Positions 13,426-24,690 of a DNA stretch of 35,026 nucleotides are shown here, piece after piece. The notes below the pieces were generated by a model, which saw only the letters and a program-made list of their open reading frames with translations, did no database searches and was not told the DNA's origin. The position numbers and the translations under genes are program-made. Within the stretch, counting starts at the first letter, position 1. Each line of letters opens with the position of its first letter. The stretch covers positions 1 through 35,026 of IMG/VR virus record IMGVR_UViG_2698536657_000017; one strand, 5' to 3'. This DNA is from a virus (lineage: Duplodnaviria; Heunggongvirae; Uroviricota; Caudoviricetes).

Positions 13426-13503
13426 AGCCGGAGATATCCAGTAGACATTTTCCCCCTGAGCATTCAAATCAGAAAAAGTATGGTTACAGCGGAGTACAGA
13501 ATA

Positions 13504-13929
13504 ATGCGTGATATCCAACAGGTTCTGTCCCGATGGGGTGCATGGGTGGTAAATAATCATGAGAGTGTGGCATGGTCCGGCGTCGCTGCCGGATTTAAGG
13601 GAGTGATCCCATCAAAGGTTAAATCACGGCCTCAGTGTACCGATGATGATGCGCTGATTATCAGCAATTGCATGGCGCAACTGAACGTCAACAACAGCGA
13701 TTTGCATGATTTTCTGTATGATTATTATGTGTTCGGGATGACGCTTATGGGACTGGGCCGTAAGCATGAGCGCTCTGATTGCTGGGCCGGGCGGGTACTG
13801 CAAAAAGCTGAAGGTGTTATTGAGGGGATGTTGATTATGCAGGGAATAAAACTGGAAATGGACAGATACGTTGAGCGTGAACGATCAGGGGCACAGGTCA
13901 GTCAGTTTTCCGGACATACGGGAAATTGA
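13504..13929 (+). CDS. Q: Late-gene antiterminator Q, phage 82/21 (QuuD-like) type (141 aa)
   Basis: [60 protein letters not shown] matches my memory of Q82/QuuD-family proteins. I preferred this start over 13480 because GGAG lies upstream of it. Confidence 0.85.
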
Positions 13930-13953
13930 AAGCGCGGGGTTTTACTGTAGAAT
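13926..13953 (+). promoter_or_regulatory. Sigma70 promoter (TTGAAA-16-TAGAAT), most likely the hok mRNA promoter
   Basis: -35 at 13926-13931 (overlapping the Q stop codon) and -10 at 13948-13953. The predicted start at about 13961 coincides with GGTGCTTGAGG, which resembles the conserved 5' end of hok-family mRNAs. Confidence 0.55.
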
Positions 13954-14019
13954 GACTGCGGGTGCTTGAGGGTGTCTGCCTCGGGCATGCTGCCGTAAGG
14001 CAGACGGAGAAAAGCCCCA

Positions 14020-14080
14020 GTTAACATTACGCGTCCTGCAAGACGCTTAACATTAATCTGAGGCCAATTTCATGCTGAAC
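14020..14080 (-). ncRNA. sok: Sok-like antisense RNA (boundaries approximate)
   Basis: Minus-strand promoter TTGCCT-17-TAACCT (-35 at 14110-14115, -10 at 14087-14092) points into the hok leader. The transcript would be complementary to the upstream in-frame ATG (14072) region. It contains the hairpin GCGTC-N6-GACGC (14031-14046). Confidence 0.4.
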
Positions 14081-14128
14081 ACATGTAGGTTAGCCTCTTA
14101 CGTGCCGAAAGGCAAGGAGAAGCAGGCT

Positions 14129-14284
14129 ATGAAGCAGCAAAAGGCGATGTTAATCGCCCTGATCGTCATCTGTTTAACCGTCATTCTGACGGTACTGGTA
14201 GCGAGGAAAGACCTCTGCGATGTACGAATCCGAACCGGCCAGACGGAGGTCGCTGTCTTCGTAGACTACGAATCTGAGAAGTAA
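14129..14284 (+). CDS. hok: Hok/Gef-family type I toxin, HokD/RelF-like (51 aa)
   Basis: MKQQKAMLIALIVICLTVILTVLVARKDLCDVRIRTGQTEVAVFVDYESEK is near-identical in pattern to RelF/HokD as I remember it. AAGGAG RBS. The upstream leader resembles the hok mRNA fold-back elements. An in-frame upstream ATG at 14072 occupies the mok position. Confidence 0.9.
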   Translation: MKQQKAMLIALIVICLTVILTVLVARKDLCDVRIRTGQTEVAVFVDYESEK

Positions 14285-14458
14285 GAGACCTGGCGGGGGA
14301 GTAATCTCCCGCCCCCTCTGATGTGTCAGGCATCCTCAACGCACCCGTACTTTAGTTGTCATATGCTCCGCAAAATGCAGGTTGTCGTTGCAACCCGTGC
14401 GGTAATTTTTTGTGTGCGAGTGCTCAAAAAACGTTGATTTTCATAAAAGGACGATTTT

Positions 14459-16543
14459 ATGCTGCCAGACCAGCGACCAGCGACCAGCGACCGTAAATCA
14501 AGAAAGTCTGTAAAATCTGTTGAACCAGACATTGCCGACCGGGCTAACAACTGGCTCAAATCTTATGGACTTGATTACAAACTGGAGCAGGCACCACTTA
14601 ACAACGAGATCGATAACGCACTGGATGCTTATTTTTCGAAAAATGGCGGCACAGGCGGTAATCGTCCCGACGTAAAACTCCTTGTTCAGGACAAATACGG
14701 CAAGCAGTATCCCGTTCTCATCGAGTATAAAGGCTACAAGGACAGGCTTATCAGACTTGGCAGCAACGGTATTATTGAGAACAAAGATGCCAGAAAAGAA
14801 TGGAATTTTAAAAATATTAATGGATACGCGGTGAATGGCGCAGTCCATTATGCCAACGCACTTCTTCAGTTCACCAATTACCCTGATATTATTGCTATTG
14901 GTATGACCGGCTGGCGCGATGATGGTACAGGCGAACTGCATCATGAAATCGGCGTGTGGTACGTATCAAAGAATAATTTAGGAGCCGGGCAGAAGGTTGG
15001 TGAATTCACCGACTTATCGTTCCTTGCTGACAAAAATGTTGATGGATTTCTCAACAAGATAAAGCTGCTTAATCTTCCTCCCGAAGAACTGGAAAAAATC
15101 AAGGCCAGCAAAGAGGAAGAGATAGACACGCGACTTTCCCGTCTGAATAACGATATTTACCAGAATGAAAAGGGGCTTGGTGAAAGCGATCGTGTTTACC
15201 TTGTTGTGGCTACCGTTATTGCAACGTTGGGGATTCCGGGAAAGTTAGCACCGCTGGATAAAAAAGAACTGACCTCTTCAACGGAGGAGGACTTGCGTGA
15301 TGGTGATATTATTTTCAGGAAAATAAGGAATTTTTTAAGGCTGAAAGCTGTTCCTGAAACAAAAAGAGAAATGATTTTGCGCTCGTTGCAAAATACGCTG
15401 TGGACTGAAAACATTAACAAACCAGTCAACGGTGAAAGCCAGTTAAAGCGCGTGTTTGTTAAAGTTGTTGATGATCTTGGGGAGTATTACAAAATCGGAC
15501 TGACCACTGATTTTACGGGCAAACTGTTTAATGAGATGTATCGCTGGCTTGGATTTACGCAGGACAAACTCAATGACGTCGTTCTGACACCACCTTATGT
15601 TGCCACATTGCTGGCACGACTCGCCAGAGTAAACAAAGATTCCTATGTGTGGGATTTTGCTACAGGTTCTGCGGGATTGCTTGTGGCTGCAATGAATGAA
15701 ATGCTCATTGACGCCAGAGAAAATATTCACTCACCGAATGAACTACAACTTAAGGAAGCGCAAATCAAGGCTGAACAGCTTCTTGGCCTTGAGGTGTTAT
15801 CCAGTATTTATATGCTGGCCATCCTGAATATGATTTTGATGGGGGATGGTAGCTCGAATATCCTCAATAAAGACTCGCTAGCCGATTTTGACGGCAAGTA
15901 TGGATTTGGGAAAACAGGAGAAAAATTCCCTGCGGACGCATTTATTCTCAATCCTCCGTATTCAGCTAAAGGTAACGGCATGATTTTCGTGCAGAAGGCG
16001 CTGTCGATGATGGATAAAGGCTATGCTGCAGTGATTATCCAGAGTTCAGCCGGCACAGGAAAGGCTACGGAGTACAACAAAAAAATACTCAAGGAAAATA
16101 CCTTGCTGGCAAGCATCAAAATGCCTGCGGATCTGTTTATTGGTAAATCAAGCGTTCAGACGTACATTTACGTTTTTCAGGTAAAAATTCCGCATAACGC
16201 GAAACAGGCTGTTAAGTTTATCGACTTTTCCAATGACGGCTATGCTCGCTCTAATCGCAAAAAGGCAAGAAACAATCTTGTTGATGCCGATCGTGCAAAA
16301 GAGCGTTATCAGGAGGTTGTGGATCTGGTTCACTTCGGGAAAGGTTGCCTTAATATCTTTACGGAGGATGAATATTTTGAGGGAACAATCGATCCTGATA
16401 GTGGTGAGGACTGGAATCAGACCAGGCCAGTAGATGCTAGGCCAACGCTGGATGATTTCAAAAAGACGGTAGGTGATTACCTTGCATGGGAGGTCTCGCA
16501 ATTACTGAAAAAACAAGGTGAAAACAATTTTGCGGGAAAGTAA
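14459..16543 (+). CDS. Fused PD-ExK nuclease plus gamma-class N6-adenine DNA methyltransferase, BcgI-A-like RM subunit (694 aa)
   Basis: N-terminal D71-X17-E89-x-K91 (NRPDVKLLV...PVLIEYKG, nt 14666-14731). MTase motif I DFATGSAG (15653-15676) precedes motif IV NPPY (15950-15961). AAGGA RBS. It is followed by an HsdS-like gene, and no HsdR-like gene is present. Confidence 0.85.
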   Translation: MLPDQRPATSDRKSRKSVKSVEPDIADRANNWLKSYGLDYKLEQAPLNNEIDNALDAYFSKNGGTGGNRPDVKLLVQDKYGKQYPVLIEYKGYKDRLIRLGSNGIIENKDARKEWNFKNINGYAVNGAVHYANALLQFTNYPDIIAIGMTGWRDDGTGELHHEIGVWYVSKNNLGAGQKVGEFTDLSFLADKNVDGFLNKIKLLNLPPEELEKIKASKEEEIDTRLSRLNNDIYQNEKGLGESDRVYLVVATVIATLGIPGKLAPLDKKELTSSTEEDLRDGDIIFRKIRNFLRLKAVPETKREMILRSLQNTLWTENINKPVNGESQLKRVFVKVVDDLGEYYKIGLTTDFTGKLFNEMYRWLGFTQDKLNDVVLTPPYVATLLARLARVNKDSYVWDFATGSAGLLVAAMNEMLIDARENIHSPNELQLKEAQIKAEQLLGLEVLSSIYMLAILNMILMGDGSSNILNKDSLADFDGKYGFGKTGEKFPADAFILNPPYSAKGNGMIFVQKALSMMDKGYAAVIIQSSAGTGKATEYNKKILKENTLLASIKMPADLFIGKSSVQTYIYVFQVKIPHNAKQAVKFIDFSNDGYARSNRKKARNNLVDADRAKERYQEVVDLVHFGKGCLNIFTEDEYFEGTIDPDSGEDWNQTRPVDARPTLDDFKKTVGDYLAWEVSQLLKKQGENNFAGK
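14468..14492 (+). repeat. Heptanucleotide tandem repeat (GACCAGC) x3.6 inside codons 4-12 of the RM gene
   Basis: Perfect period-7 identity across 14468-14492 (gaccagc gaccagc gaccagc gacc). The unit length is not a multiple of 3. Confidence 0.9.
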
Positions 16544-16602
16544 ATTCCCCGCTCAGCGATAAATTAAGAAGCGTTGAGTGGGGAGAGTTCAGGATTGGCG
16601 AT

Positions 16603-17139
16603 TTGTTCTATGTGAGCACAGGCTCGCTTATCTCCTCAGGAAGATTAAAACCAGGCAAAATTAAACGTGTTTCAGCAAAGAGCGATCAAAACGGTATCAT
16701 CGGAGAGTTTGATACCGAGTTTATGGATGATGCAAGGCATTATGAAAATTTTATAAGCGTTAATTTTTTTGGAGATGCTTTTTATCATCCTTATTGTGCC
16801 AGCGTAGAAATGAAGGTGCATGTTCTTACATTAAAATCAAGTAAGTCCGACTTTAATGCAAAGCGCGGACTGTATGTTGCCAGTATGATTAATAAAGCTT
16901 TAAAGGGGCGTTTTAATTATGGTCAACAGTTATCGAGTTCCAAACTCAGAGATGGAGAATATTTCATCTCATTACCAGTGAAAAATAATGAAATTGACTG
17001 GTTTTTTATGGATAATTATATAGAAGAGCTGGAAGCGGCCCATATAGAAGAGCTGGAAGCTTACTTGCTGGTTAGCGGACTCGCGGACTCGCGGACTCGC
17101 GGACTCGCGGACTCGCGGACTCGCGGACTCGCGGACTGA
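16603..17139 (+). CDS. HsdS-like specificity subunit, N-terminal half (TRD1 plus central helix), terminated inside or after an 8-mer repeat tract
   Basis: The frame is open from 16522. It has the conserved S-subunit N-terminal motif VEWGEFRIGDLF, a TRD-like body, and a coiled-coil FFMDNYIEELEAAHIEELEAYL. It then reads through the repeat as GLADSRTRGLADSRTRGLAD and stops at TGA 17137. The only start codon after the motif region is TTG at 16603. Confidence 0.7.
   Translation: MFYVSTGSLISSGRLKPGKIKRVSAKSDQNGIIGEFDTEFMDDARHYENFISVNFFGDAFYHPYCASVEMKVHVLTLKSSKSDFNAKRGLYVASMINKALKGRFNYGQQLSSSKLRDGEYFISLPVKNNEIDWFFMDNYIEELEAAHIEELEAYLLVSGLADSRTRGLADSRTRGLAD
17018..17060 (+). repeat. In-frame 24-bp tandem duplication (ATATAGAAGAGCTGGAAGC core, x1.8) in the S central helix
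   Basis: Copies at 17018-17036 and 17042-17060 are identical and have a 24-nt period. They encode IEELEAAH/IEELEAYL. Confidence 0.85.
17075..17137 (+). repeat. Octanucleotide tandem repeat (GCGGACTC) x7.9 between the two halves of the S gene
   Basis: There are 7 perfect units at 17075-17130 plus 7 nt of an eighth. The unit length is not a multiple of 3. The flanking ORFs are in different frames (pos mod 3 = 1 upstream, 0 downstream). Confidence 0.97.
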
Positions 17140-18298: not shown

Positions 18299-18485
18299 TA
18301 TCGACCTCTTTCAGGAATTGTGTAACTGAGATGACAGATTCAGATTTCGTCAATAAATGCAAAATGTCAATCCTGAGATCATGGTGAGCTATCTGGCGGT
18401 TTTTTATATCTGTTTAACGGGGGATGTTACATACCTCACAATTCAGTCAGTTGAAGGTTGTCTGCCCGGATGAGAATTTGTTAGA

Positions 18486-18663
18486 AAATTTCTGCATGGT
18501 GAATCCCCCTGAGCGGAGGGGCATATCAGCGACAGGTGGTTGGTTATATCCCTTATCTGGTGCGGGTTCAGGTGCTGATACTGAACTCACCGGGAGGCAC
18601 CCGGCACCATGCAATGAACGGTACATAGCGCTACTCTTCAGCCCCTCTCCGGAGGGGCTTTTT
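18486..18663 (+). ncRNA. Candidate structured RNA / short terminated transcript, unit 1 (ends approximate)
   Basis: Promoter-like TTGAAG (18451-18456) with TGaGAATTT downstream. Closing helix TGCATGGTG (18493-18501) pairs with CACCATGCA (18605-18613). Hairpins CCCCT-N6-AGGGG and CCGGG-aggca-CCCGG. Terminator AGCCCCTC-tccg-GAGGGGCT-TTTT (18640-18663). Confidence 0.45.
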
Positions 18664-18752
18664 AATGAGGGGAAGACACTGGGCAGTGAAATGTTAAATC
18701 ACTCACAATTCAGGTAGTTGACGGTTGTCTGCTTGGCTGAGAATTTGTAAAA

Positions 18753-18939
18753 AAAATCCTGCATGGTGAATCCCCCTGTGCGGAGGGGCGACTGGTGAAT
18801 GGTATGATCTCTTTGATGATCGTAAGCGAGAATACGCGGGTTTGGTGGCACCAGGCCGAACTCACCGGGAGGCACCCGGCACCATGCAGTATACAGAGAT
18901 TAGGCATATACCAAGGCCCCTCATAGCAGGGGCCTTTTT
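18753..18939 (+). ncRNA. Candidate structured RNA / short terminated transcript, unit 2 (ends approximate)
   Basis: Promoter-like TTGACG with TGaGAATTT. Perfect 10-bp closing helix CTGCATGGTG (18759-18768) pairs with CACCATGCAG (18880-18889). It has the same two hairpins as unit 1. It has its own terminator AGGCCCCT-catagc-AGGGGCCT-TTTT (18914-18939). Confidence 0.45.
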
Positions 18940-19157
18940 ACATGCAAAAAAAGCCGCCCCGGGAAGAGCGGTTGGCAAGAAGAAAAGCAATATGAACAAT
19001 TAATTAACGATGGGAATAATACCTTAGAGTAATCACCTTGCGCAACTGTAAGGGCATATTTCATCTTTGCGGGCTGTTTTTCCGGGTGACTTCTGTGTTT
19101 CCGGAGGCCAGCCTGTACCTTCTCTGACTCAGAACATTATCCCGGCCGGGAGGATTC

Positions 19158-21068
19158 ATGGCATTTAAACACTATGACGTGGTCAGGGCGGCGTCGCCGT
19201 CAGACCTTGCGGAACGAATAACTCAAAAACTGAAGGAAGGGTGGCAGCCTTATGGTAGTGCGCTGATTTCGACAGCTGGTTATGGTGCGGAGTTCATCCA
19301 GCCAGTTGTGAGTGAGGGGAGCATCTCATCACCAGAGGAGCCAGGCAACCGTCCGACGACCTCAGCGCCTTCTGTTGCGCCAGAATATTACTATGTGATC
19401 GCGCTTGCTGGTCAGTCCAATGGTATGTCATACGGTGAGGGACTGCCATTACCGGATACATTCGACAGCCCTGATCCACGTATTAAACAGTTAGCGCGTC
19501 GCAGTACGGTGACACCGGGAGGTGCTGCATGTATCTATAACGATATTATCCCGGCAGATCACTGTCTCCATGATGTGGAGGATATGACAGGGCTTAATCA
19601 TCCCAAAGCGGATTTATCGAAAGGTCAGTACGGCTGTGTGGGACAGGGGCTGCATATCGCCAAAAAGCTTCTGCCATTTATACCGGCGAATGCGGGCATT
19701 CTTCTTGTTCCGTGCTGCCGTGGTGGTTCAGCTTTCACCACCGGAACCGATGGCACATACAGTGACACTACTGGCGCCTCAGAGAGTTCCACCCGCTGGG
19801 GGGTGGGCAGGCCGCTGTATAAGGACCTCATTGGTCGTACAAAAGCCGCGCTGGCGAAGAATCCGAAAAATGTGCTGCTTGCCGTGGTATGGATGCAAGG
19901 GGAATTTGATTTTAACGGAACGCCAGCGAATCATGCAGCCCGTTTTACAGAAGTGGTGGATCAATACCGTGCGGACCTTGCAGATATGGCGGGGCAGTGT
20001 GTGGGTGGCTCAGCTGACAGTGTTCCCTGGATTTGTGGAGACACAACATATTTCTGGAAGCAGAAGAACGAAACGGCGTACCAGACGGTGTACGGTAGTT
20101 ACAAAAATAAAACGGAAAAGAATATCCATTTCGTGCCGTTCATGACCGATGAGAACGGGGTGAATGTGCCGACGAACAAACCGGAAGAAGACCCGGATAT
20201 TCCGGATATCGGGTATTACGGTTCAAAATGGCGAACGGACAGAAGCACCTGGACATCTCAGGACAGGGCCAGTCATTTCAGTTCATGGGCTCGCCGTGGG
20301 ATTATTTCCGACCGTCTGGCAACGGCGATTCTGAGCTGCGCGGGTAAGTCTTCTGCGTTTGTTAATGGTACTGCCGGGGTGGTTGTTCCAGACAGACCGG
20401 TTACCACCTCAGAGTCTGTAATTTTTTACGATGCCAAAAAAGCTTCAGACAATCAGCTGAAACCTTATGGCTGGGACGGTATGGATGGCAGACGCACACT
20501 GGTTGATGACAGCGGCAATAAAGCTCTGCGAATTGAGAAAAATAACAGCGCGAAATCCTGGTCAATGTACTGTGATATTGCTGCAGACAAGGCAAAACTT
20601 TTACTGGAAAAAGGCGGGGAAATTGCTGTCCGGTTTAAAATCCCCGAAAACGTCAATCTTGAGACAACCAGAAACAAGTATGCCTTTGGTTTGTACTGGC
20701 GAATAGCGGAATGGCCGGGTGAGGGTGGTGAAGGCTATCTGAGTTCTTTCTTTGTCCAGACAGATAAAGCCAGTATTGATGTTGCATACCATCATACAGT
20801 TAATCAACAAAAAGAACTTGGCACGTTTGGCGCATTCGACCATGACTGGCATACGCTTGCATTTAAATTTAAGGGCAGTAACAGCATTAATGTTACTCCG
20901 GTGCTTGATGGTGTGGATGGACAGGCGTTTGACCTGGTGAAATGGGCCAATACTGCTAATGGACTCAACAGGTTTGTCATTACGGATATTACAGGTAGTG
21001 CAGAAACCTACCCTGTACTTATTGATACGGTGGAAGTTAAAGCAAACAAAGCTGGAGCAGCCGCATAA
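19158..21068 (+). CDS. nanS-p: Prophage sialate O-acetylesterase NanS-p type (DUF1737 N-terminus plus SASA/DUF303 esterase plus C-terminal domain), 636 aa
   Basis: N-terminal MAFKHYDVVRAASPSDLAERITQKLKEGWQPYGS (DUF1737-like). Esterase block YYYVIALAGQSNGMSYGEG with the GQSN motif. The size and the position downstream of the Q/stx slot match NanS-p genes of Stx phages, from memory. Confidence 0.85.
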   Translation: MAFKHYDVVRAASPSDLAERITQKLKEGWQPYGSALISTAGYGAEFIQPVVSEGSISSPEEPGNRPTTSAPSVAPEYYYVIALAGQSNGMSYGEGLPLPDTFDSPDPRIKQLARRSTVTPGGAACIYNDIIPADHCLHDVEDMTGLNHPKADLSKGQYGCVGQGLHIAKKLLPFIPANAGILLVPCCRGGSAFTTGTDGTYSDTTGASESSTRWGVGRPLYKDLIGRTKAALAKNPKNVLLAVVWMQGEFDFNGTPANHAARFTEVVDQYRADLADMAGQCVGGSADSVPWICGDTTYFWKQKNETAYQTVYGSYKNKTEKNIHFVPFMTDENGVNVPTNKPEEDPDIPDIGYYGSKWRTDRSTWTSQDRASHFSSWARRGIISDRLATAILSCAGKSSAFVNGTAGVVVPDRPVTTSESVIFYDAKKASDNQLKPYGWDGMDGRRTLVDDSGNKALRIEKNNSAKSWSMYCDIAADKAKLLLEKGGEIAVRFKIPENVNLETTRNKYAFGLYWRIAEWPGEGGEGYLSSFFVQTDKASIDVAYHHTVNQQKELGTFGAFDHDWHTLAFKFKGSNSINVTPVLDGVDGQAFDLVKWANTANGLNRFVITDITGSAETYPVLIDTVEVKANKAGAAA

Positions 21069-21207
21069 TTGCTAAAAAAAGCCGCCAGCGGCAGGAATGG
21101 AAGCTGGCGGAGGTAATCCCAATGGAGAATGTAAAGAAAAGATGCTTTCGTACATTGGTTTTTTAAATGAAAACAGTTCTCATTGTCAACCATAACGGTA
21201 AGAAATT

Positions 21208-21390
21208 ATGATATTTATTCATCAGGTGATGCTGTACTTCTGTACGGCGGTCTGTGTGCTGTATCTTCTTTCGGGTGGGTACAGGGCAGTGCGCGATTTC
21301 TGGCGCAGGCAGATTGATAAAAGGGCCGCTGAGAAAATCAGCGCCAGTCAGTCAGCCGGAAGCAAACCCGAAGAGCCCGTTACTCCTTAA
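21208..21390 (+). CDS. Hypothetical small membrane protein (60 aa)
   Basis: One hydrophobic helix (VMLYFCTAVCVLYLLSGG) followed by a charged tail. It sits between nanS-p and the lysis genes. Confidence 0.5.
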   Translation: MIFIHQVMLYFCTAVCVLYLLSGGYRAVRDFWRRQIDKRAAEKISASQSAGSKPEEPVTP

Positions 21391-21415
21391 CAACCCCTTT
21401 CAGCGAGAAAATCCC

Positions 21416-21688
21416 ATGTCAGAAATTACATCCCTGGTCACTGCAGAGGCAGTGAAGGAAGTCCTGCGCTCTGAAGAAGTCCGGAGCGCACTGAAACAGA
21501 AACTTCGCCAGAATCTTGAGGCGCGTCTTGATGCAGAAGTTGATGCCATTCTGGATGAGCTGCTTGGTGTACAGGCAGAGCCACCGACTGAAGCGGGAGA
21601 TACCACCGCAGAGAGCGGTGAAGTTCAGCCTGAATCACCGGTCGCCGATGCGACTGAACCTCAACCCGAATCGGTCATGATGCTGTAA
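21416..21688 (+). CDS. Hypothetical acidic protein (90 aa)
   Basis: I chose the start [15 protein letters not shown]. The longer track ORF overlaps the previous gene in another frame. Confidence 0.55.
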
Positions 21689-21764
21689 CGAGGAGTCAGG
21701 GCCATCAGTAAACGGCTGCTGGCCTTTTTCATGTTGTGAGCTTCCGGATTGCGGGAGACGGGGT

Positions 21765-21980
21765 ATGTACCAGATGGAAAAAATCACAACAGGTGTGTCA
21801 TACACCACGTCAGCGGTGGGAACGGGCTACTGGTTCCTGCAGTTGCTGGACAGGGTTTCCCCGTCTCAGTGGGCGGCAATAGGCGTGCTGGGGAGTCTGC
21901 TGTTTGGGCTGCTGACATATCTGACGAACCTGTATTTCAAGATTAAAGAAGACCGGCGTAAGGCGGCGCGGGGAGAGTAA
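21765..21980 (+). CDS. S: Class II holin, S21 (pinholin)-type, with a dual-start motif (71 aa)
   Basis: [71 protein letters not shown] closely parallels phage 21 S as I remember it. Met1/Met4 give a potential antiholin/holin pair. Confidence 0.9.
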
Positions 21981-21984
21981 GCTG

Positions 21985-22518
21985 ATGAGCAGGAAATTCC
22001 GCTATGGTTTATCAGCGGTCGTTCTGGCGCTGATTGCTGCAGGTGCTTCTGCGCCTGAAATCCTCGACCAGTTTCTTGACGAAAAAGAAGGTAACCACAC
22101 CACGGCATACCGTGATGGTGCGGGTATCTGGACCATCTGCCGTGGTGCCACCCAGGTGGATGGTAAGCCTGTCGTCCCCGGCATGAAGTTGTCGAAGGAA
22201 AAATGCGACCAGGTTAACGCCATTGAACGTGATAAGGTGCTGGCATGGGTGGCGAAAAACATCAGAGTGCCACTGACCGAACCTCAGAAAGCGGGGATCG
22301 CGTCATTCTGTCCTTACAACATTGGCCCCGGTAAGTGTTTCCCGTCGACGTTTTATAAACGAATTAATGCAGGCGATCGCAGGGGAGCGTGTGAAGCGAT
22401 TCGCTGGTGGATTAAGGACGGTGGCAGAGACTGCCGTATCCGCTCAAATAATTGCTACGGTCAGGTATCCCGTCGCGACCAGGAGAGTGCGCTGGCATGT
22501 TGGGGTATCGACAGGTAG
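21985..22518 (+). CDS. R: SAR endolysin, GH24 lysozyme (177 aa)
   Basis: N-terminal weakly hydrophobic signal-anchor-release segment (YGLSAVVLALIAAGASAP). The catalytic region EGNHTTAYRDGAGIWTICRG is typical of R21/P1 Lyz-type lysozymes. Confidence 0.92.
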   Translation: MSRKFRYGLSAVVLALIAAGASAPEILDQFLDEKEGNHTTAYRDGAGIWTICRGATQVDGKPVVPGMKLSKEKCDQVNAIERDKVLAWVAKNIRVPLTEPQKAGIASFCPYNIGPGKCFPSTFYKRINAGDRRGACEAIRWWIKDGGRDCRIRSNNCYGQVSRRDQESALACWGIDR

Positions 22519-22606
22519 CAGAATATTTTGCTGAAAAATAACGTTGGTCAACGCGGACGGATAACACGAAATCCTGCGAACTGGCAAAACCTAAGTGAAT
22601 AAAAGT

Positions 22607-22646
22607 AAAAACCCCGTTTTTGGCAGCAAGCGGGGTTTTGTGTTTA
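22607..22646 (+). terminator. Intrinsic terminator-like hairpin inside the lysis cassette
   Basis: CCCCG (22612-22616) pairs with CGGGG (22631-22635), with additional inner pairing, followed by TTTTGTGTTT. An A-run upstream makes it potentially bidirectional. Confidence 0.5.
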
Positions 22647-22710
22647 TGGCAGTAAGCTATGGGTGGCTGCCTTGATTGATTTTAGCAAACTGATTAGGGA
22701 GTTGCGACTC

Positions 22711-22806
22711 ATGATTAGTCAATTACCAAACTGGAAGTTTTTGCTGGTCTGGAGCATCCCTTTTTTATGGGGGGTATCCCAGTTAATTGTGGCAATTAAG
22801 GGGTAG
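22711..22806 (+). CDS. Candidate small hydrophobic peptide (31 aa)
   Basis: Hand-translated MISQLPNWKFLLVWSIPFLWGVSQLIVAIKG, with GGGAG upstream. It is below the ORF-track cutoff. Confidence 0.3.
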   Translation: MISQLPNWKFLLVWSIPFLWGVSQLIVAIKG

Positions 22807-22808
22807 CT

Positions 22809-22940
22809 ATGTCAGACAAACTCATAACGCTGGCGAAGATCCTCTGTGTAATCGTCGGCATTTCATTTTCACTAATGCTGGTTGCTATTTTTCTTTTCCT
22901 GCCCTGGATGATGTTGTCTTCGTCGGGGATGCTGGGGTAA
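22809..22940 (+). CDS. Candidate small single-TM peptide (43 aa)
   Basis: Hand-translated MSDKLITLAKILCVIVGISFSLMLVAIFLFLPWMMLSSSGMLG, with AAGGGG upstream. It starts 2 nt after the previous small ORF's stop. Confidence 0.35.
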   Translation: MSDKLITLAKILCVIVGISFSLMLVAIFLFLPWMMLSSSGMLG

Positions 22941-23122
22941 CAGTGACTGATGACATCAGCAGAGCGCTGGCTTTGCTATTAAGTGGGTGGCGGTTGGTAT
23001 CGCTGTGTCTCCGATACTGTATGGGCTGGCAAAACTGGTCATTGCGCTGAAATCGTGAACTTTATTTAAACAGATGAGTAATGAAATTGCTGTACTGGTC
23101 CGGGCAATTCGCTGGTGGTGAT

Positions 23123-23584
23123 ATGAACCGTATTCTGTATGTGGTGATTATTGTACTGCTGGTGGCCTGTGGTGCGCTTAGTCTGGGGCTGAATCATTAC
23201 CGCGATAACGCCATCACCTACAAAGCGCAGCGCGATAAAAAAGCCAGAGAGCTGGAGCTAGCAAACGCAACCATTACTGACATGCAGCAGCGCCAGCGTG
23301 ATGTTGCTGCGCTTGATGCCAGATACTCAAGGGAATTAGCCGATGCGAGAGCTGAAAATGAAACTCTGCGCGCTGATGTTGCCGCTGGTCGTAAGCGCCT
23401 GCGGATCAACGCCACCTGCTCCGGTACCGTGCGTGAAGCCCCCACCACCTCCGGCGTGGATAATGCAACCGCCCCCCGACTGGCAGACACAGTTGAACGG
23501 GATTATTTCACTCTCAGAGAGCGGTTGATGCTGATGCAGAAGCAGCTGGAAGGGGCACAGGACTATATCCGCACTCAGTGCTGA
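23123..23584 (+). CDS. Rz: i-spanin Rz (153 aa)
   Basis: N-terminal TM ([18 protein letters not shown]) followed by a coiled-coil periplasmic domain, with an Rz1 gene embedded in the +1 frame. I chose the start MNRILY. Confidence 0.85.
23343..23528 (+). CDS. Rz1: o-spanin Rz1 lipoprotein (61 aa), embedded in Rz
   Basis: Lipobox LVVSAC. The proline-rich mature part [27 protein letters not shown] is nearly identical to lambda Rz1 as I remember it. Confidence 0.88.
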
Positions 23585-23883
23585 ACTAAGTTTTGCTGAT
23601 GCGCCGTATCGTCGCCGTATTCCCGCATAAACAGAGACCGCAGCCACCTTATCTGCGTGAGTGTGCGGGGGTAATCAAAAACGATGCACACCGGGTTTTC
23701 TCATTTTTCACGAGATGGGAGCGATTTCCCGCGAAGCCGCCTGTCCGGTGCGGTGGTGGAAGAAACCGGATAAAACAACCTCATTGTACAAATATCGATC
23801 AAGTATGGCGCTGCTGTGTGAATTCTGAAAAATCACAGCGGTCATTATGCGTCAGTTTTTAACAGAGGACGTCAGAAAGTGAC

Positions 23884-24690
23884 ATGGCAAAGCTGGACTG
23901 GAAAAAGCTGGAGCAGGCATTCCGACGCGAACATGCCGAAACGGGAATAACATTACTGGACTGGTGCCGGAAGAAAAAGATTAATTACAACACCGCCAGA
24001 ACCCGTATAAAAATGGGCAAAATCGATCATGAAATTGATCATAAAACCGATCATGAAATCGATCATGACATCTCAGATGAAGAACCCAGCAATGACGCGT
24101 GTTCCGACGATGAAAAATGCGCAAAAAACTCTGAAAAAAACTGCGCAAATTCGGCAGAAACGAAACGGATTCGTGGTTCCCGACTTTTACCTCCTTCAAA
24201 CGCTTTTTCTCAGCGAAACACCCACGCCGTAAGACACCGTGGATATGCGAAGTATCTTGAGGCAGATAACCTCATGGATGATGCGTCCGACATGGTGCTG
24301 TTCGATGAACTGGTGTTCACCCGGGCCCGCGCACTTTCAGTAACTAAGGCACTTAAAGGGATGTTCGCCGACCTGGAAGAGGCAACTGACGTGGAAACCC
24401 GCGTTGCTCTTTACGACAAAATACTCAAAGCTGAACAGGCCCTTGACCGGAATATTGCCCGTATCGAGTCAATTGAACGCTCATTGCTGACGCTGGACGT
24501 CCTGGCTGAGACAGCACCAAAACTTCGTGCTGACCGGGAAAGAATCAACGCCGCCAGAGATAAACTCAGAGCGGAAACCGATATTCTGACCAGCCAGCGC
24601 CGGGGTGTTATTACGCCAGTCAGTGACATCGTGTCATCGCTGCATGAAATGAGTAATTCGGGGAGACTGGATGACATTCCGGAAGAATAA
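23884..24690 (+). CDS. terS: Terminase small subunit (268 aa)
   Basis: N-terminal HTH-like segment (GITLLDWCRKKKINYNTARTRIKMG). It lies immediately upstream of, and overlaps, the large terminase gene. The C-terminal half is coiled-coil. Confidence 0.7.
   Translation: MAKLDWKKLEQAFRREHAETGITLLDWCRKKKINYNTARTRIKMGKIDHEIDHKTDHEIDHDISDEEPSNDACSDDEKCAKNSEKNCANSAETKRIRGSRLLPPSNAFSQRNTHAVRHRGYAKYLEADNLMDDASDMVLFDELVFTRARALSVTKALKGMFADLEEATDVETRVALYDKILKAEQALDRNIARIESIERSLLTLDVLAETAPKLRADRERINAARDKLRAETDILTSQRRGVITPVSDIVSSLHEMSNSGRLDDIPEE
24022..24069 (+). repeat. Four tandem 12-bp units, each containing GATC (ATCGATCATGAA-like)
   Basis: Units at 24022, 24034, 24046 and 24058, with GATC at 24025, 24037, 24049 and 24061 (exact 12-bp phasing). 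They are codon-aligned and encode IDHE-IDHK-TDHE-IDHD. Confidence 0.9.

What the first reader, a model, noticed from the sequence alone, without database searches (positions are those of the whole stretch)
22519..23122. 0.6-kb insert between the endolysin and spanin genes: an internal terminator plus two back-to-back tiny hydrophobic ORFs
In most lambdoid lysis cassettes R is followed directly by Rz/Rz1. Here there is a terminator-like hairpin (22607-22646). Two Shine-Dalgarno-preceded micro-ORFs follow, separated by 2 nt. The first is 31 aa (MISQLPNWKFLLVWSIPFLWGVSQLIVAIKG). The second is 43 aa (MSDKLITLAKILCVIVGISFSLMLVAIFLFLPWMMLSSSGMLG). Both are essentially single transmembrane helices. 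A possible third hydrophobic frame (...KWVAVGIAVSPILYGLAKLVIALKS, ending at 23056) follows. Candidates include lysis-timing modulators (antiholin-like or holin-interacting peptides), a small membrane toxin cargo gene, or a superinfection-exclusion peptide. The 87-aa ORF in the track for this region is in a different frame and looks spurious.
Basis: seen in the sequence. Interest (0 to 1): 0.55.

Follow-up and report, generated by a model that had tools for sequence, protein, structure and literature searches.

The report
Membrane micro-genes between endolysin and spanin
The gap between the cell-wall enzyme gene and the outer-membrane disruptor gene of this lambda-like prophage holds a real transcription terminator and a row of tiny, conserved genes for single-helix membrane peptides, which are common in Shiga-toxin phages but have never been studied and have no known function.

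Summary
Between R (SAR lysozyme, 21985-22518) and Rz (23123-23584) lie a conserved leader, a strong intrinsic terminator (22608-22646) and a chain of translationally coupled micro-ORFs.

- ORF1 is probably 44 aa, starting at TTG 22672. The 31-aa form uses the family's invariant internal Met. It belongs to a ~45-aa family (PHROG 6632) found from Escherichia to Pseudomonas phages. That family is under clear purifying selection (pN/pS 0.32) and always follows a covarying terminator hairpin.
- ORF2 (43 aa, PHROG 4906) is limited to E. coli/Shigella phages. It is full length in all 276 phage records that carry it, and directly precedes Rz in every locus examined, including behind Ant in Stx2 phages.
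- The third frame is a frameshifted pseudogene of a 38-60-aa paralogue. A fourth micro-ORF is cut to 15 aa.
- The insert is not unusual: 2051 of 5426 complete E. coli genomes carry at least part of it.

No promoter, antisense RNA, Pfam, NCBIfam, defence-system or literature match was found. Best reading: late-operon inner-membrane peptides that are non-essential accessories of lysis. The function is inferred, not shown. This is moderately interesting as a new member of a known kind.

The parts
21765..21980 (+). Class II (S21-type) holin/pinholin, 71 aa, with Met1/Met4 dual start
   Evidence: ORF list; PGAP 'class II holin family protein'
21985..22518 (+). R, lysozyme with an N-terminal SAR-like hydrophobic segment, 177 aa
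   Evidence: annotated lysozyme; C-terminal 44 codons have pN/pS 0.11
22519..22607 (+). Conserved 3' leader of R, shared by all cargo types including Ant-carrying Stx2 phages. Contains a hypervariable near-palindrome at 22542-22553
   Evidence: Alignments and allele list; RNAalifold gives two small hairpins without covariation
22608..22646 (+). Intrinsic terminator hairpin (arms 22608-22619 and 22628-22639, U-run after). An A-run before it makes it look bidirectional
   Evidence: 12 pairs; -18.3 kcal/mol on the + strand, -13.1 on the - strand; equivalent hairpins about 30-40 nt before homologous ORFs in six other phages; 4 of 12 pairs show compensatory changes
22672..22806 (+). Micro-gene O1, 44 aa from TTG 22672 (SD GGGTGG here, GGGAGG in most alleles). 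Predicted as an N-terminal amphipathic helix plus one TM helix
   Evidence: PHROG 6632; homologues of about 45 aa in Escherichia, Salmonella, Enterobacter, Citrobacter, Klebsiella, Providencia and Pseudomonas; pN/pS 0.32 in frame against 0.77 and 1.89 off frame; AF2 helices 4-17 and 20-43, pLDDT 82
22809..22940 (+). Micro-gene O2, 43 aa, one TM helix (residues ~11-33), conserved G17xxxS21. Identical to RefSeq WP_001280931.1 (hypothetical protein)
   Evidence: PHROG 4906, E = 4e-21; 105 homologues, nearly all 43 aa; full length in 276 phage records; pN/pS 0.50 in frame against 0.80 and 1.16 off frame
22943..23058 (+). O3t pseudogene. GTG start, then a 1-nt deletion in the T-run at 22972-22974, so the hydrophobic C-terminal part (stop 23056-58) is out of frame. 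The intact form is 38 aa (51 aa as PGAP calls it), or 60 aa where it is the first gene of the array
   Evidence: Alignment with E2348/69; PGAP 'frameshifted'; PHROGs 1115/3246/4493; architecture table
23074..23121 (+). O4 remnant, 15 aa ([15 protein letters not shown]). A 39-nt in-frame deletion of the 28-aa O4. Its last codons carry the Rz ribosome-binding site and its stop lies 1 nt before the Rz ATG
23123..23584 (+). Rz i-spanin (start at the MNRILY... Met, not the upstream ATG at 23081)
   Evidence: PGAP coordinates; homologues start here; pN/pS 0.25
23343..23528 (+). Rz1 o-spanin lipoprotein embedded in Rz
   Evidence: ORF list, lipobox-like LVVSAC

Best explanation
The insert is a stack of small promoterless gene cassettes sitting in the Q-dependent late operon, between the endolysin and spanin genes.

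How it is built:
- An intrinsic terminator stands at its front. Only terminator-resistant (Q-modified) polymerase should read into it, so the peptides would be made late, together with the holin, the SAR endolysin and the spanins (inferred).
- Ribosomes then translate a chain of coupled micro-genes: O1 (44 aa), O2 (43 aa), the now-defective O3t, a truncated O4, and then Rz. The Rz ribosome-binding site lies inside the last micro-ORF.
- O1 and O2 are genuine proteins. Each is a single-pass, probably N-in/C-out, inner-membrane peptide.
- O1, O3 and O4 are paralogues of one family. O2 is a separate family.

Most likely function (inferred, not shown): non-essential accessory peptides that act on the membrane steps of lysis, such as holin triggering, SAR-endolysin release or spanin action. 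They could do this through helix-helix contacts or through a general effect on the energised membrane, and so tune lysis timing.

In this phage only O1 and O2 are still intact.
For: Coding:
- The O1 family has pS 0.575 and pN 0.186, with dN/dS 0.08-0.45 between alleles from six phages. All six have non-ATG starts behind strong SDs. There are no stops in frame and 2-7 in each other frame.
- S5, K6, R12 and M14 are invariant across 32 homologues.
- O2 keeps 43 codons over 62-100% identity.
- O2 pN/pS is 0.50 overall and 0.37 in the N-terminal half, against 0.80 and 1.16 off frame.
- Where the O2 ATG is lost (ATA), an in-frame ATG one codon upstream takes over.
- One O2 variant (P0053) has a short internal stretch that reads like the overlapping frame and then returns to frame, which looks like a compensated frameshift.

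Late-operon expression:
- Q lies at 13480-13929 on the same strand.
- No + strand promoter-like site lies in the insert.
- The terminator is conserved and covaries.
- The ORFs are joined by ATGA or TGATG overlaps or gaps of 2-10 nt to Ant, a 231-aa Rha-like gene, each other and Rz.

Lysis link:
- O2 lies directly upstream of Rz in every architecture found among 184 loci.
- O3 lies directly upstream of Rz in Salmonella prophages that have a different holin and lysozyme.
- The O1 family lies between a GH19 endolysin and unrelated spanins in Enterobacter, and between R and Rz in H-19B and SPN3UB.

Membrane peptide:
- The most hydrophobic 19-residue Kyte-Doolittle windows score 1.95-2.93.
- The AF2 model has two helices.

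Non-essential:
- K-12 Qin has no insert.
- Cassette content varies between phages.
- O3t and O4 are decayed here.
Against: - No experiment or paper bears on function.
- There is no similarity to holin, antiholin, releasin or spanin families. Pfam, NCBIfam and PADLOC are empty. hhalign of O3 against the S21 holin gives 3% probability.
- The O1 family also sits in tail or baseplate modules: SEN34, Rac-SA53, Citrobacter and P. aeruginosa. That argues against a lysis-specific partner for that family.
- O2 selection is only moderate, and its C-terminal half looks nearly neutral (pN/pS 0.65-0.92).
- Within the commonest architecture the insert is almost invariant. Much of the conservation there reflects recent spread, not constraint.
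- Terminator function and Q read-through are inferred from sequence only.
Confidence: 0.5

Rival explanations
1. The micro-genes are moron-type cargo whose job is unrelated to lysis. They would be small inner-membrane peptides that act on a host membrane function or block superinfection, in the manner of HK97 gp15. The R-Rz junction would simply be one of several permissive slots in late operons.
For: - The O1-family cassette, with its own hairpin, is found after the baseplate spike gene in SEN34 and Rac-SA53.
- It is found just before tail gene J in Citrobacter, next to a lipoprotein moron.
- It is found among small ORFs in the tail module of P. aeruginosa phages, on 497 contigs.
- The same R-Rz slot carries clearly non-lysis cargo, namely Ant and a Rha-like gene.
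Against: - No promoter precedes any copy examined, and a terminator stands in front, so expression from a repressed prophage is not expected.
- O2 and O3 were never seen away from Rz.
- In three unrelated lysis cassettes the O1 family sits at the same endolysin-spanin junction.
- No PADLOC hit.
Confidence: 0.25
2. The ORFs are translated but the peptides have little function of their own. They would persist because ribosomes must be carried across inserted DNA to keep Rz/Rz1 translation coupled, and because the block hitch-hikes with recombining lysis modules.
For: - The Rz SD is embedded in the last codons of whichever micro-ORF precedes it: GGGGTGA or GGTGGTGA.
- In K-12 Qin, R itself overlaps Rz.
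- The O2 C-terminal half is nearly neutral.
- O3t and O4 decay without loss of the phage lineage.
- The insert is near-invariant in architecture A, which points to recent spread.
Against: - The O1 family is under strong purifying selection over Escherichia-Pseudomonas distances, and also where no spanin follows.
- The O2 N-terminal half is constrained (pN/pS 0.37).
- Hydrophobic single-TM character is kept through all sequence change.
- A coupling spacer would not need to be a membrane helix.
Confidence: 0.12
3. The important product is RNA. The leader plus terminator would be a 3'-UTR-derived small RNA of the R transcript, or a terminator/antiterminator switch controlling entry into the micro-ORFs and Rz.
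For: - The conserved leader ends in a Hfq-type terminator.
- It has a hypervariable segment flanked by conserved sequence, as in prophage anti-sRNAs (PMC4104026).
- The MFE of 22519-22655 pairs 22563-22578 with the 3' arm of the terminator.
Against: - No Rfam family matches.
- RNAalifold does not keep the alternative pairing and finds no compensatory change in the leader.
- No promoter lies upstream.
- This reading does not explain the coding signatures of the ORFs.
Confidence: 0.06
4. O1 and/or O2 are type I toxins, that is, small membrane-depolarising peptides held in check by an antisense RNA that ends at the bidirectional hairpin.
For: - The peptides are small and hydrophobic.
- The hairpin has A- and U-runs on both sides and folds on the minus strand (-13.1 kcal/mol).
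- One minus-strand promoter-like site lies at 22815-22786.
- A real hok/sok locus is present elsewhere in the window.
Against: - Promoter-like sites are at chance level: 3 found, 2.7 expected.
- The minus-strand site is not kept in the O3-O2 architecture or in the Salmonella and Pseudomonas cassettes.
- The ORFs have no promoter or long 5' UTR of their own and are coupled to neighbouring genes.
- No Rfam or Pfam toxin/antitoxin match.
Confidence: 0.03

Closest known systems
Antiholins and accessory lysis-cassette membrane proteins (lambda S107, S21-71, P1 LydB, P2 LysA, T4 RI)
   Same: They are small membrane proteins encoded inside the lysis cassette and made with the holin. They are not essential for lysis and are thought or shown to tune its timing. 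O1 also has two possible starts (TTG 22672 and the invariant Met at 22711), which recalls dual-start motifs.
   Different: There is no sequence relation. The genes sit between endolysin and spanin, not at the holin. They are separate genes rather than alternative starts of the holin. No timing effect has been tested.
Mu gp25 'releasin' (DUF2730; PMC9239132)
   Same: It is a single-TM accessory protein in a SAR-endolysin lysis cassette. It lies a few genes from the endolysin and spanins and acts on a membrane step.
   Different: gp25 is 99 aa and N-out/C-in, with a 73-aa acidic cytoplasmic domain, and it is required for lysis. O1 and O2 are 43-44 aa, probably N-in/C-out, have almost no soluble domain, give no DUF2730 match and are dispensable in relatives.
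Morons of lambdoid phages (Juhala et al. 2000, as cited in PMC4104026; examples named from my own knowledge: bor, lom, HK97 gp15)
   Same: It is extra DNA present in some relatives and absent in others, at fixed junctions of late operons. It often encodes small envelope proteins, and the same slot can hold alternative cargo such as Ant or a Rha-like gene.
   Different: Classical morons carry their own promoter in front and a terminator behind, and are expressed from the prophage. Here the terminator is in front, no promoter is seen, and the genes are translationally chained to their neighbours.
Type I toxins such as Hok (a hok/sok locus is at 13960-14284 of this window)
   Same: Short hydrophobic single-helix peptides encoded on a prophage.
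   Different: There is no antisense RNA gene, no own transcription unit and no family match.

Membership tests
PHROG 6632 / 45-aa 'DFSKLIRE...IRWW' phage peptide family (O1) | Profile match and shared N-terminal motif DFSK[LI]IRE.R.M followed by one hydrophobic helix, total length about 45 aa | tested here: met
   hmmscan E = 2.2e-5 for the 31-aa part, aligned to profile positions 14-43 of 45. The full 44-aa reading aligns end to end with 31 homologues. The window allele has the rarer '...LIVAIKG' C-terminus instead of 'IRWW'.
PHROG 6632 cassette | Intrinsic-terminator hairpin 30-40 nt upstream of a non-ATG start with a strong SD | tested here: met
   Seen in the window, E2348/69, H-19B, SPN3UB, SEN34, Rac-SA53 and the P. 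aeruginosa phage YMC11/02/R656, and in the Enterobacter locus. Covariation in 4 of 12 pairs.
PHROG 4906 (O2) | Profile match over the full length | tested here: met
   E = 4.2e-21, residues 1-43 on profile positions 7-49 of 49. Identical to WP_001280931.1.
PHROG 1115/3246/4493 (O3, O4) | Intact reading frame matching the profile | tested here: not met
   The intact E2348/69 forms match (E = 3e-24 and 3.8e-6). In the window O3t is frameshifted and O4 has lost 13 codons.
Holin / antiholin | Sequence membership in a holin family | tested here: not met
   No Pfam hit at E <= 1. hhalign of O3 against the S21 holin gives 3% probability and O2 against the holin 0.06%. Only a shared [AV]x[IV]G[VI]xxS motif was seen.
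Holin / antiholin | Timed membrane permeabilisation, or inhibition of it | not testable with these tools
   Needs induction and lysis curves.
Releasin (DUF2730) | DUF2730 domain, N-out/C-in topology with a large cytoplasmic domain | tested here: not met
   No Pfam match. The peptides are 43-44 aa with no soluble domain.
Spanin (i-, o- or u-spanin) | Periplasm-spanning domain or lipobox | tested here: not met
   Too short and without a lipobox Cys context. The true Rz/Rz1 follow at 23123 and 23343.
Classical moron | Present or absent between conserved flanking genes in related phages | tested here: met
   Absent in K-12 Qin. Alternative cargo occupies the same slot.
Classical moron | Own sigma-70 promoter upstream and terminator downstream | tested here: not met
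   No + strand promoter-like site lies in 22519-23122. The terminator lies upstream of the genes.
Type I toxin-antitoxin | Conserved antisense or divergent sRNA gene with its own promoter | tested here: not met
   The one minus-strand promoter-like site is at chance level and not conserved in other architectures. No Rfam hit.
Intrinsic (rho-independent) terminator | G+C-rich stem, short loop, U-run; structure kept in evolution | tested here: met
Intrinsic (rho-independent) terminator | Terminates transcription in vivo and is overridden by Q | not testable with these tools
   Needs a reporter assay with and without Q.

The most novel reading that the evidence does not exclude
O2, possibly together with the O1/O3 family peptides, is a new class of lysis regulator. 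It would be a 43-aa inner-membrane helix that binds the transmembrane domain of the pinholin, the SAR endolysin or the Rz i-spanin through its conserved GxxxS face. In that way it would set the time of lysis, and so the time of Shiga-toxin release, in essentially all Stx phages.
Probability: 0.22. Interest if true: 0.65.

Novelty: new member of a known kind. Interest (0 to 1): 0.42.

Why it matters
Lysis timing of Stx phages sets how much phage and toxin an induced STEC cell releases. The lysis cassette of these phages is usually drawn as S-R-(ant)-Rz/Rz1.

This work shows that a 43-aa membrane peptide gene directly precedes Rz in every Stx-phage locus examined. It is mostly unannotated. A second peptide family, about 45 aa and terminator-led, is conserved from Escherichia to Pseudomonas phages.

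If these peptides affect holin, endolysin or spanin function, they add a layer to a well-studied paradigm, and simple deletions and lysis curves can test that. If they do not, they are a clean example of how micro-genes persist and recombine inside phage late operons.

There is also a practical point for annotation:
- O1 is missed by PGAP in these genomes.
- O2 is missed in many phage records.
- The 87-aa ORF should not be called.

Tried and rejected
- Rfam, both at permissive E-value on 21000-24500 and at gathering threshold on the whole window, gives nothing in the insert.
- Pfam, NCBIfam and PADLOC give no meaningful hits. The only matches are sub-threshold, to DUF3930 and to an MFS small-subunit model.
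- Literature searches by peptide words, accession numbers, PHROG ids and lysis-cassette terms found no paper on these ORFs. The Sakai RIBOseq supplements do not contain the peptides. The 'Cryptic Bacterial Microproteome' preprint does not mention lysis or prophage contexts. The Pas sRNA preprint concerns the esterase-holin gap, not this one.
- Homology of O3 or O2 to the S21 pinholin TMD2 is rejected as unproven. It was suggested by a Smith-Waterman z of 3.7 and by a natural holin-O3 chimera, P0224, but hhalign gives 3% probability.
- An O2 relative next to the Pseudomonas O1 homologue: the neighbouring 38-aa hydrophobic ORF shows no similarity (z = 0.09).
- The genome-contig scan for O2 found only a 328-nt contig labelled Xanthomonas pisi, which I take to be probable contamination.
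- A profile search of 1.84 billion representatives found only 31 O2 relatives, so there is no remote family.
- An antiterminator alternative structure in the leader appears in one MFE fold but not in the consensus fold.
- Within-architecture dN/dS for O1, O3t and O4 could not be used: there are only 4-9 segregating changes.
Full report
**What is in the window.** The region lies in the late operon of a lambdoid prophage.
- Antiterminator Q is at 13480-13929.
- Downstream on the same strand lie a hok/sok locus, a DNA methylase pair, two STnc100 copies and a SASA esterase.
- Next come DUF1378 and DUF826 genes, a class II S21-type holin (21765-21980) and a lysozyme with an N-terminal SAR-like segment (R, 21985-22518).
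- The 604-nt insert follows, then Rz (23123-23584) with Rz1 embedded (23343-23528).
- The insert is 100% identical to Escherichia phage phiSTEC1589-Stx1c and to six complete E. coli chromosomes.

**Checking the observation.**
- The hairpin has 12 pairs (22608-22619 with 22628-22639), an A-run before it and a U-rich tail after it.
- It folds at -18.3 kcal/mol, with z = -2.6 against shuffles.
- The 31-aa ORF runs 22711-22806, with GGGAG 9 nt upstream.
- The 43-aa ORF runs 22809-22940, with AAGGGG 5 nt upstream. The two are 2 nt apart.
- The third hydrophobic frame ends at TGA 23056-58.

**The insert is common, not unusual.**
- At least part of it is present in 2051 of 5426 complete E. coli genomes, and most of it in 587.
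- K-12 Qin lacks it: there rrrQ overlaps rzpQ directly.
- The 933W-like Stx2 phages carry Ant in the same slot, behind the same leader.

**Architectures.** I collected 184 loci from IMG/VR, phage records and genomes, and located each element by tblastn. I call the micro-ORFs O1 to O4.
- R-O1-O2-O3t(38 aa, GTG start)-O4(28 aa)-Rz: about 80 loci, including E2348/69.
- R-O3(60 aa)-O2-Rz: about 70 loci.
- R-O1-O2-Rz: 6 loci.
- R-Ant-O2-Rz: the Stx2 phages.
- R-(231-aa Rha-like gene)-O1-O2-(O3t)-Rz: for example Stx1a_99E13 and PhiR5_1.
- The window type: 11 loci.

The window type is the first form after decay. A 1-nt deletion in a T-run (22972-22974) frameshifts O3t. A 39-nt in-frame deletion cuts O4 to 15 aa (23074-23121). 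PGAP independently marks O3t as 'frameshifted' and calls O2 a hypothetical protein, WP_001280931.1.

The 87-aa ORF is an artefact of this frameshift. It joins an out-of-frame overlap of O2, the intact start of O3t and the shifted tail.

**Is O2 a gene?**
- It matches PHROG 4906 (E = 4e-21).
- It has 105 homologues in the 5.8-billion protein set. All those named are from E. coli, and nearly all are 43 aa.
- It is full length and ungapped in 276 phage records at 62-100% identity. Almost all of these are Stx phages, and there it is usually unannotated.
- A profile search of 1.84 billion representatives adds nothing distant.
- Summed over pairs of 20 haplotypes, pN/pS is 0.50 in frame against 0.80 and 1.16 in the other frames. 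It is 0.37 in codons 1-26 and 0.65 in codons 27-43.
- For comparison, the flanking R and Rz segments give 0.11 and 0.25.
- In Ant-type phages the ATG is ATA, and an ATG one codon upstream is used. That start overlaps or abuts the Ant stop.
- One variant (P0053) has a short internal stretch that reads like the overlapping frame and then returns to frame, which looks like a compensated frameshift.
- G17 and S21, four residues apart in the helix, are among the nearly invariant residues.

O2 is therefore a real gene, but only moderately constrained.

**Is O1 a gene, and where does it start?** tblastn with the 31-aa peptide found weak full-length matches in Salmonella phages. Reading those loci showed that the reading frame extends upstream.
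- SPN3UB has VIDISKLIRELRLMIEQLPNWKF...IRWW, between its lysozyme and Rz.
- SEN34 has VIDFSKLIMELRVMGEKLPNWKF...RWW.
- The window reads LIDFSKLIRELRLMISQLPNWKF... from TTG 22672, with GGGTGG 7 nt upstream. Most other alleles have GGGAGG there.
- The family is about 45 aa and matches PHROG 6632, whose profile is 45 long.
- It occurs in H-19B, Stx2c phages, Rac-SA53, Enterobacter, Citrobacter, Klebsiella, Providencia and P. aeruginosa.
- S5, K6, R12 and M14 are invariant.
- Between six alleles, pS is 0.575 and pN 0.186, a ratio of 0.32 against 0.77 and 1.89 off frame. Pairwise dN/dS is 0.08-0.45.

That is clear purifying selection. In the Rha-type loci, the 31-aa form alone is present and overlaps the upstream stop as ATGA. 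Both starts may therefore be used; this is inferred.

AlphaFold2 gives helix 4-17, a break at Pro/Asn, then helix 20-43, with mean pLDDT 82.

**Relations among the peptides.**
- The C-terminal helix of O1 resembles the C-terminus of O3 (Smith-Waterman z = 6.5, 0 of 2000 shuffles).
- O4 resembles the middle of O3 (z = 6.4).
- O4 ends in the same IRWW + stop + Rz-ATG junction as the 45-aa family.
- O2 is unrelated to the others.

The four-ORF array thus looks like a mosaic of two ancestral cassettes (45-aa-Rz and O3-O2-Rz). Every recombinant has stayed open. This last step is inference.

**The hairpin belongs to the cassette.** In every member of the O1 and O3 families that I examined, a hairpin of the form AAAA(C/G)CCCCG-loop-CGGGG(C/G)UUUU lies 30-40 nt before the start codon. 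This holds in lambdoid lysis cassettes, in baseplate and tail modules, and in Pseudomonas.
- Across 11 versions, 4 of 12 pairs show compensatory double changes.
- The Ant cargo has a different hairpin at the same place.
- No + strand promoter-like site lies in the insert, and promoter-like sites in the region are at chance level: 3 found against 2.7 expected.

The simplest reading is that the genes are reached only by terminator-resistant late transcription. This is inferred, not shown.

**Population pattern.**
- Within the commonest architecture, the stretch from the hairpin to the end of O4 is almost invariant (pi about 0-0.01).
- R, the first part of the leader and Rz are polymorphic (pi up to 0.19).
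- The block has therefore spread recently across different R and Rz alleles, and conservation inside that group says little about constraint.
- A hypervariable near-palindrome (window 22542-22553) sits in the leader between conserved flanks. I cannot explain it.

**What does it do?** Nothing known matches.
- Pfam, NCBIfam and PADLOC are empty.
- The PHROG families are 'unknown function'.
- I found no paper.

Context is the only guide, and it points two ways.

For a lysis role:
- O2 directly precedes Rz in every architecture found.
- O3 directly precedes Rz in Salmonella prophages that have a different holin (Phage_holin_2_3) and a 161-aa lysozyme.
- The 45-aa family sits between a GH19 endolysin and unrelated spanins in Enterobacter.

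Against a lysis-specific role:
- The 45-aa cassette also sits after the baseplate spike gene (SEN34, Rac-SA53), before tail gene J (Citrobacter), and in the tail module of P. aeruginosa phages.

The peptides are dispensable in relatives, and two of the four are decayed here.

I commit to this reading: late-made, single-pass inner-membrane accessory peptides that most likely tune the membrane steps of lysis. My overall confidence is about 0.5 that the anatomy and expression logic are right, and about 0.3-0.35 that the function is lysis tuning. The main rival is a non-lysis membrane 'moron' function (0.25).

A type I toxin reading is rejected. There is no conserved antisense promoter, no own transcription unit, and the ORFs are coupled to their neighbours.

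**Comparison with known systems.** The peptides work most like antiholins and other accessory lysis-cassette membrane proteins, or like the Mu releasin in concept (PMC9239132). They fail every sequence-membership test for those families. They resemble morons in their presence/absence pattern, but not in having their own promoter.

**Verdict.** The features are real. The genes are recorded only as hypothetical proteins or not annotated at all, and their function is open. Interest is moderate.

Noticed in passing
window 22542-22553 (leader just after the R stop): A hypervariable near-palindrome (CGTTGGTCAACG here; CGTTGGCCAACG and GCGTGGCCACGC in other alleles; CGTGGCGCCACG in Salmonella) sits between well-conserved flanks. 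It reaches 18 segregating changes in 30 nt, while the neighbouring hairpin has none. I have no explanation for it.
   Followed up: partly
window 13480-17139: The slot downstream of Q (13480-13929), where Stx phages carry stx, holds sok RNA (13960-14134) with a hok-like ORF (14072-14284), an N6 DNA methylase (14459-16543) and a Methylase_S protein (16603-17139). No ORF of stx1A size lies where phiSTEC1589-Stx1c carries stx1, even though the lysis region is 100% identical to that Stx1c phage.
   Followed up: partly
window 18465-18670 and 18732-18945: Two tandem copies of the sRNA STnc100 (Rfam RF02076, 153 and 200 bits) lie just upstream of the SASA esterase gene. A 2026 preprint reports STnc100/PasD at this kind of position.
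   Followed up: no
window 21068-21765: The gap between the SASA esterase and the holin is where the prophage sRNAs PasA/PasC are reported to lie (bioRxiv 10.64898/2026.05.13.724894). Here it contains the DUF1378 and DUF826 ORFs. A chance-level Rfam match to Esr41 lies at 21074-21148 on the minus strand (E = 0.99). I did not check for a Pas homologue.
   Followed up: no
protein P0224 (ENA, 554-nt contig): A natural chimera: residues 1-36 of the S21-type holin are fused, exactly at the Trp that opens TMD2, to the transmembrane tail of O3 (…SPSQW|VAVGVAVSPMLYGLAKLVIALKS). The two helices share a [AV]x[IV]G[VI]xxS motif, but profile comparison does not support homology.
   Followed up: partly
L190 1762-1899 (SEN34), L199 1801-1938 (Rac-SA53), L206 3001-3138 (Citrobacter), L198 2501-2647 and L200-L202 (P. 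aeruginosa): The 45-aa O1-family gene, each time with its own upstream terminator hairpin, sits in baseplate or tail modules rather than lysis cassettes. In Pseudomonas it is followed by another 38-aa hydrophobic ORF that is unrelated to O2.
   Followed up: partly
L191 1496-1606 (SPN3UB) and L194 about 2226-2312 (Salmonella prophage): Yet another ~36-aa hydrophobic ORF (MSKRDVSALCFLMAAAVAISGNDGWGWLIFAGIIIL in SPN3UB) overlaps the stop of the lysozyme gene, ahead of the conserved leader.
   Followed up: no
window 22563-22578 with 22629-22643: In the minimum-energy fold of the whole leader, an upstream segment (AACACGAAAUCCUGCG) pairs with the 3' arm and U-run of the terminator, like an antiterminator. 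Three substitutions seen in other alleles would keep the pairing through G-U, but one (CCTGAG) would break a pair. The consensus fold does not retain the pairing.
   Followed up: partly
window 23081-23122: The longest Rz ORF starts at ATG 23081 (167 aa), and the phage record annotates it that way. Homologues and PGAP start at 23123. The upstream extension overlaps the O4 remnant in another frame.
   Followed up: yes
L184 (NZ_JPLE01000251.1, 328 nt, labelled Xanthomonas pisi): The only hit for O2 among species-representative genomes is a 328-nt contig carrying an Ant-type O2. I take it to be probable E. coli phage contamination of that assembly.
   Followed up: no
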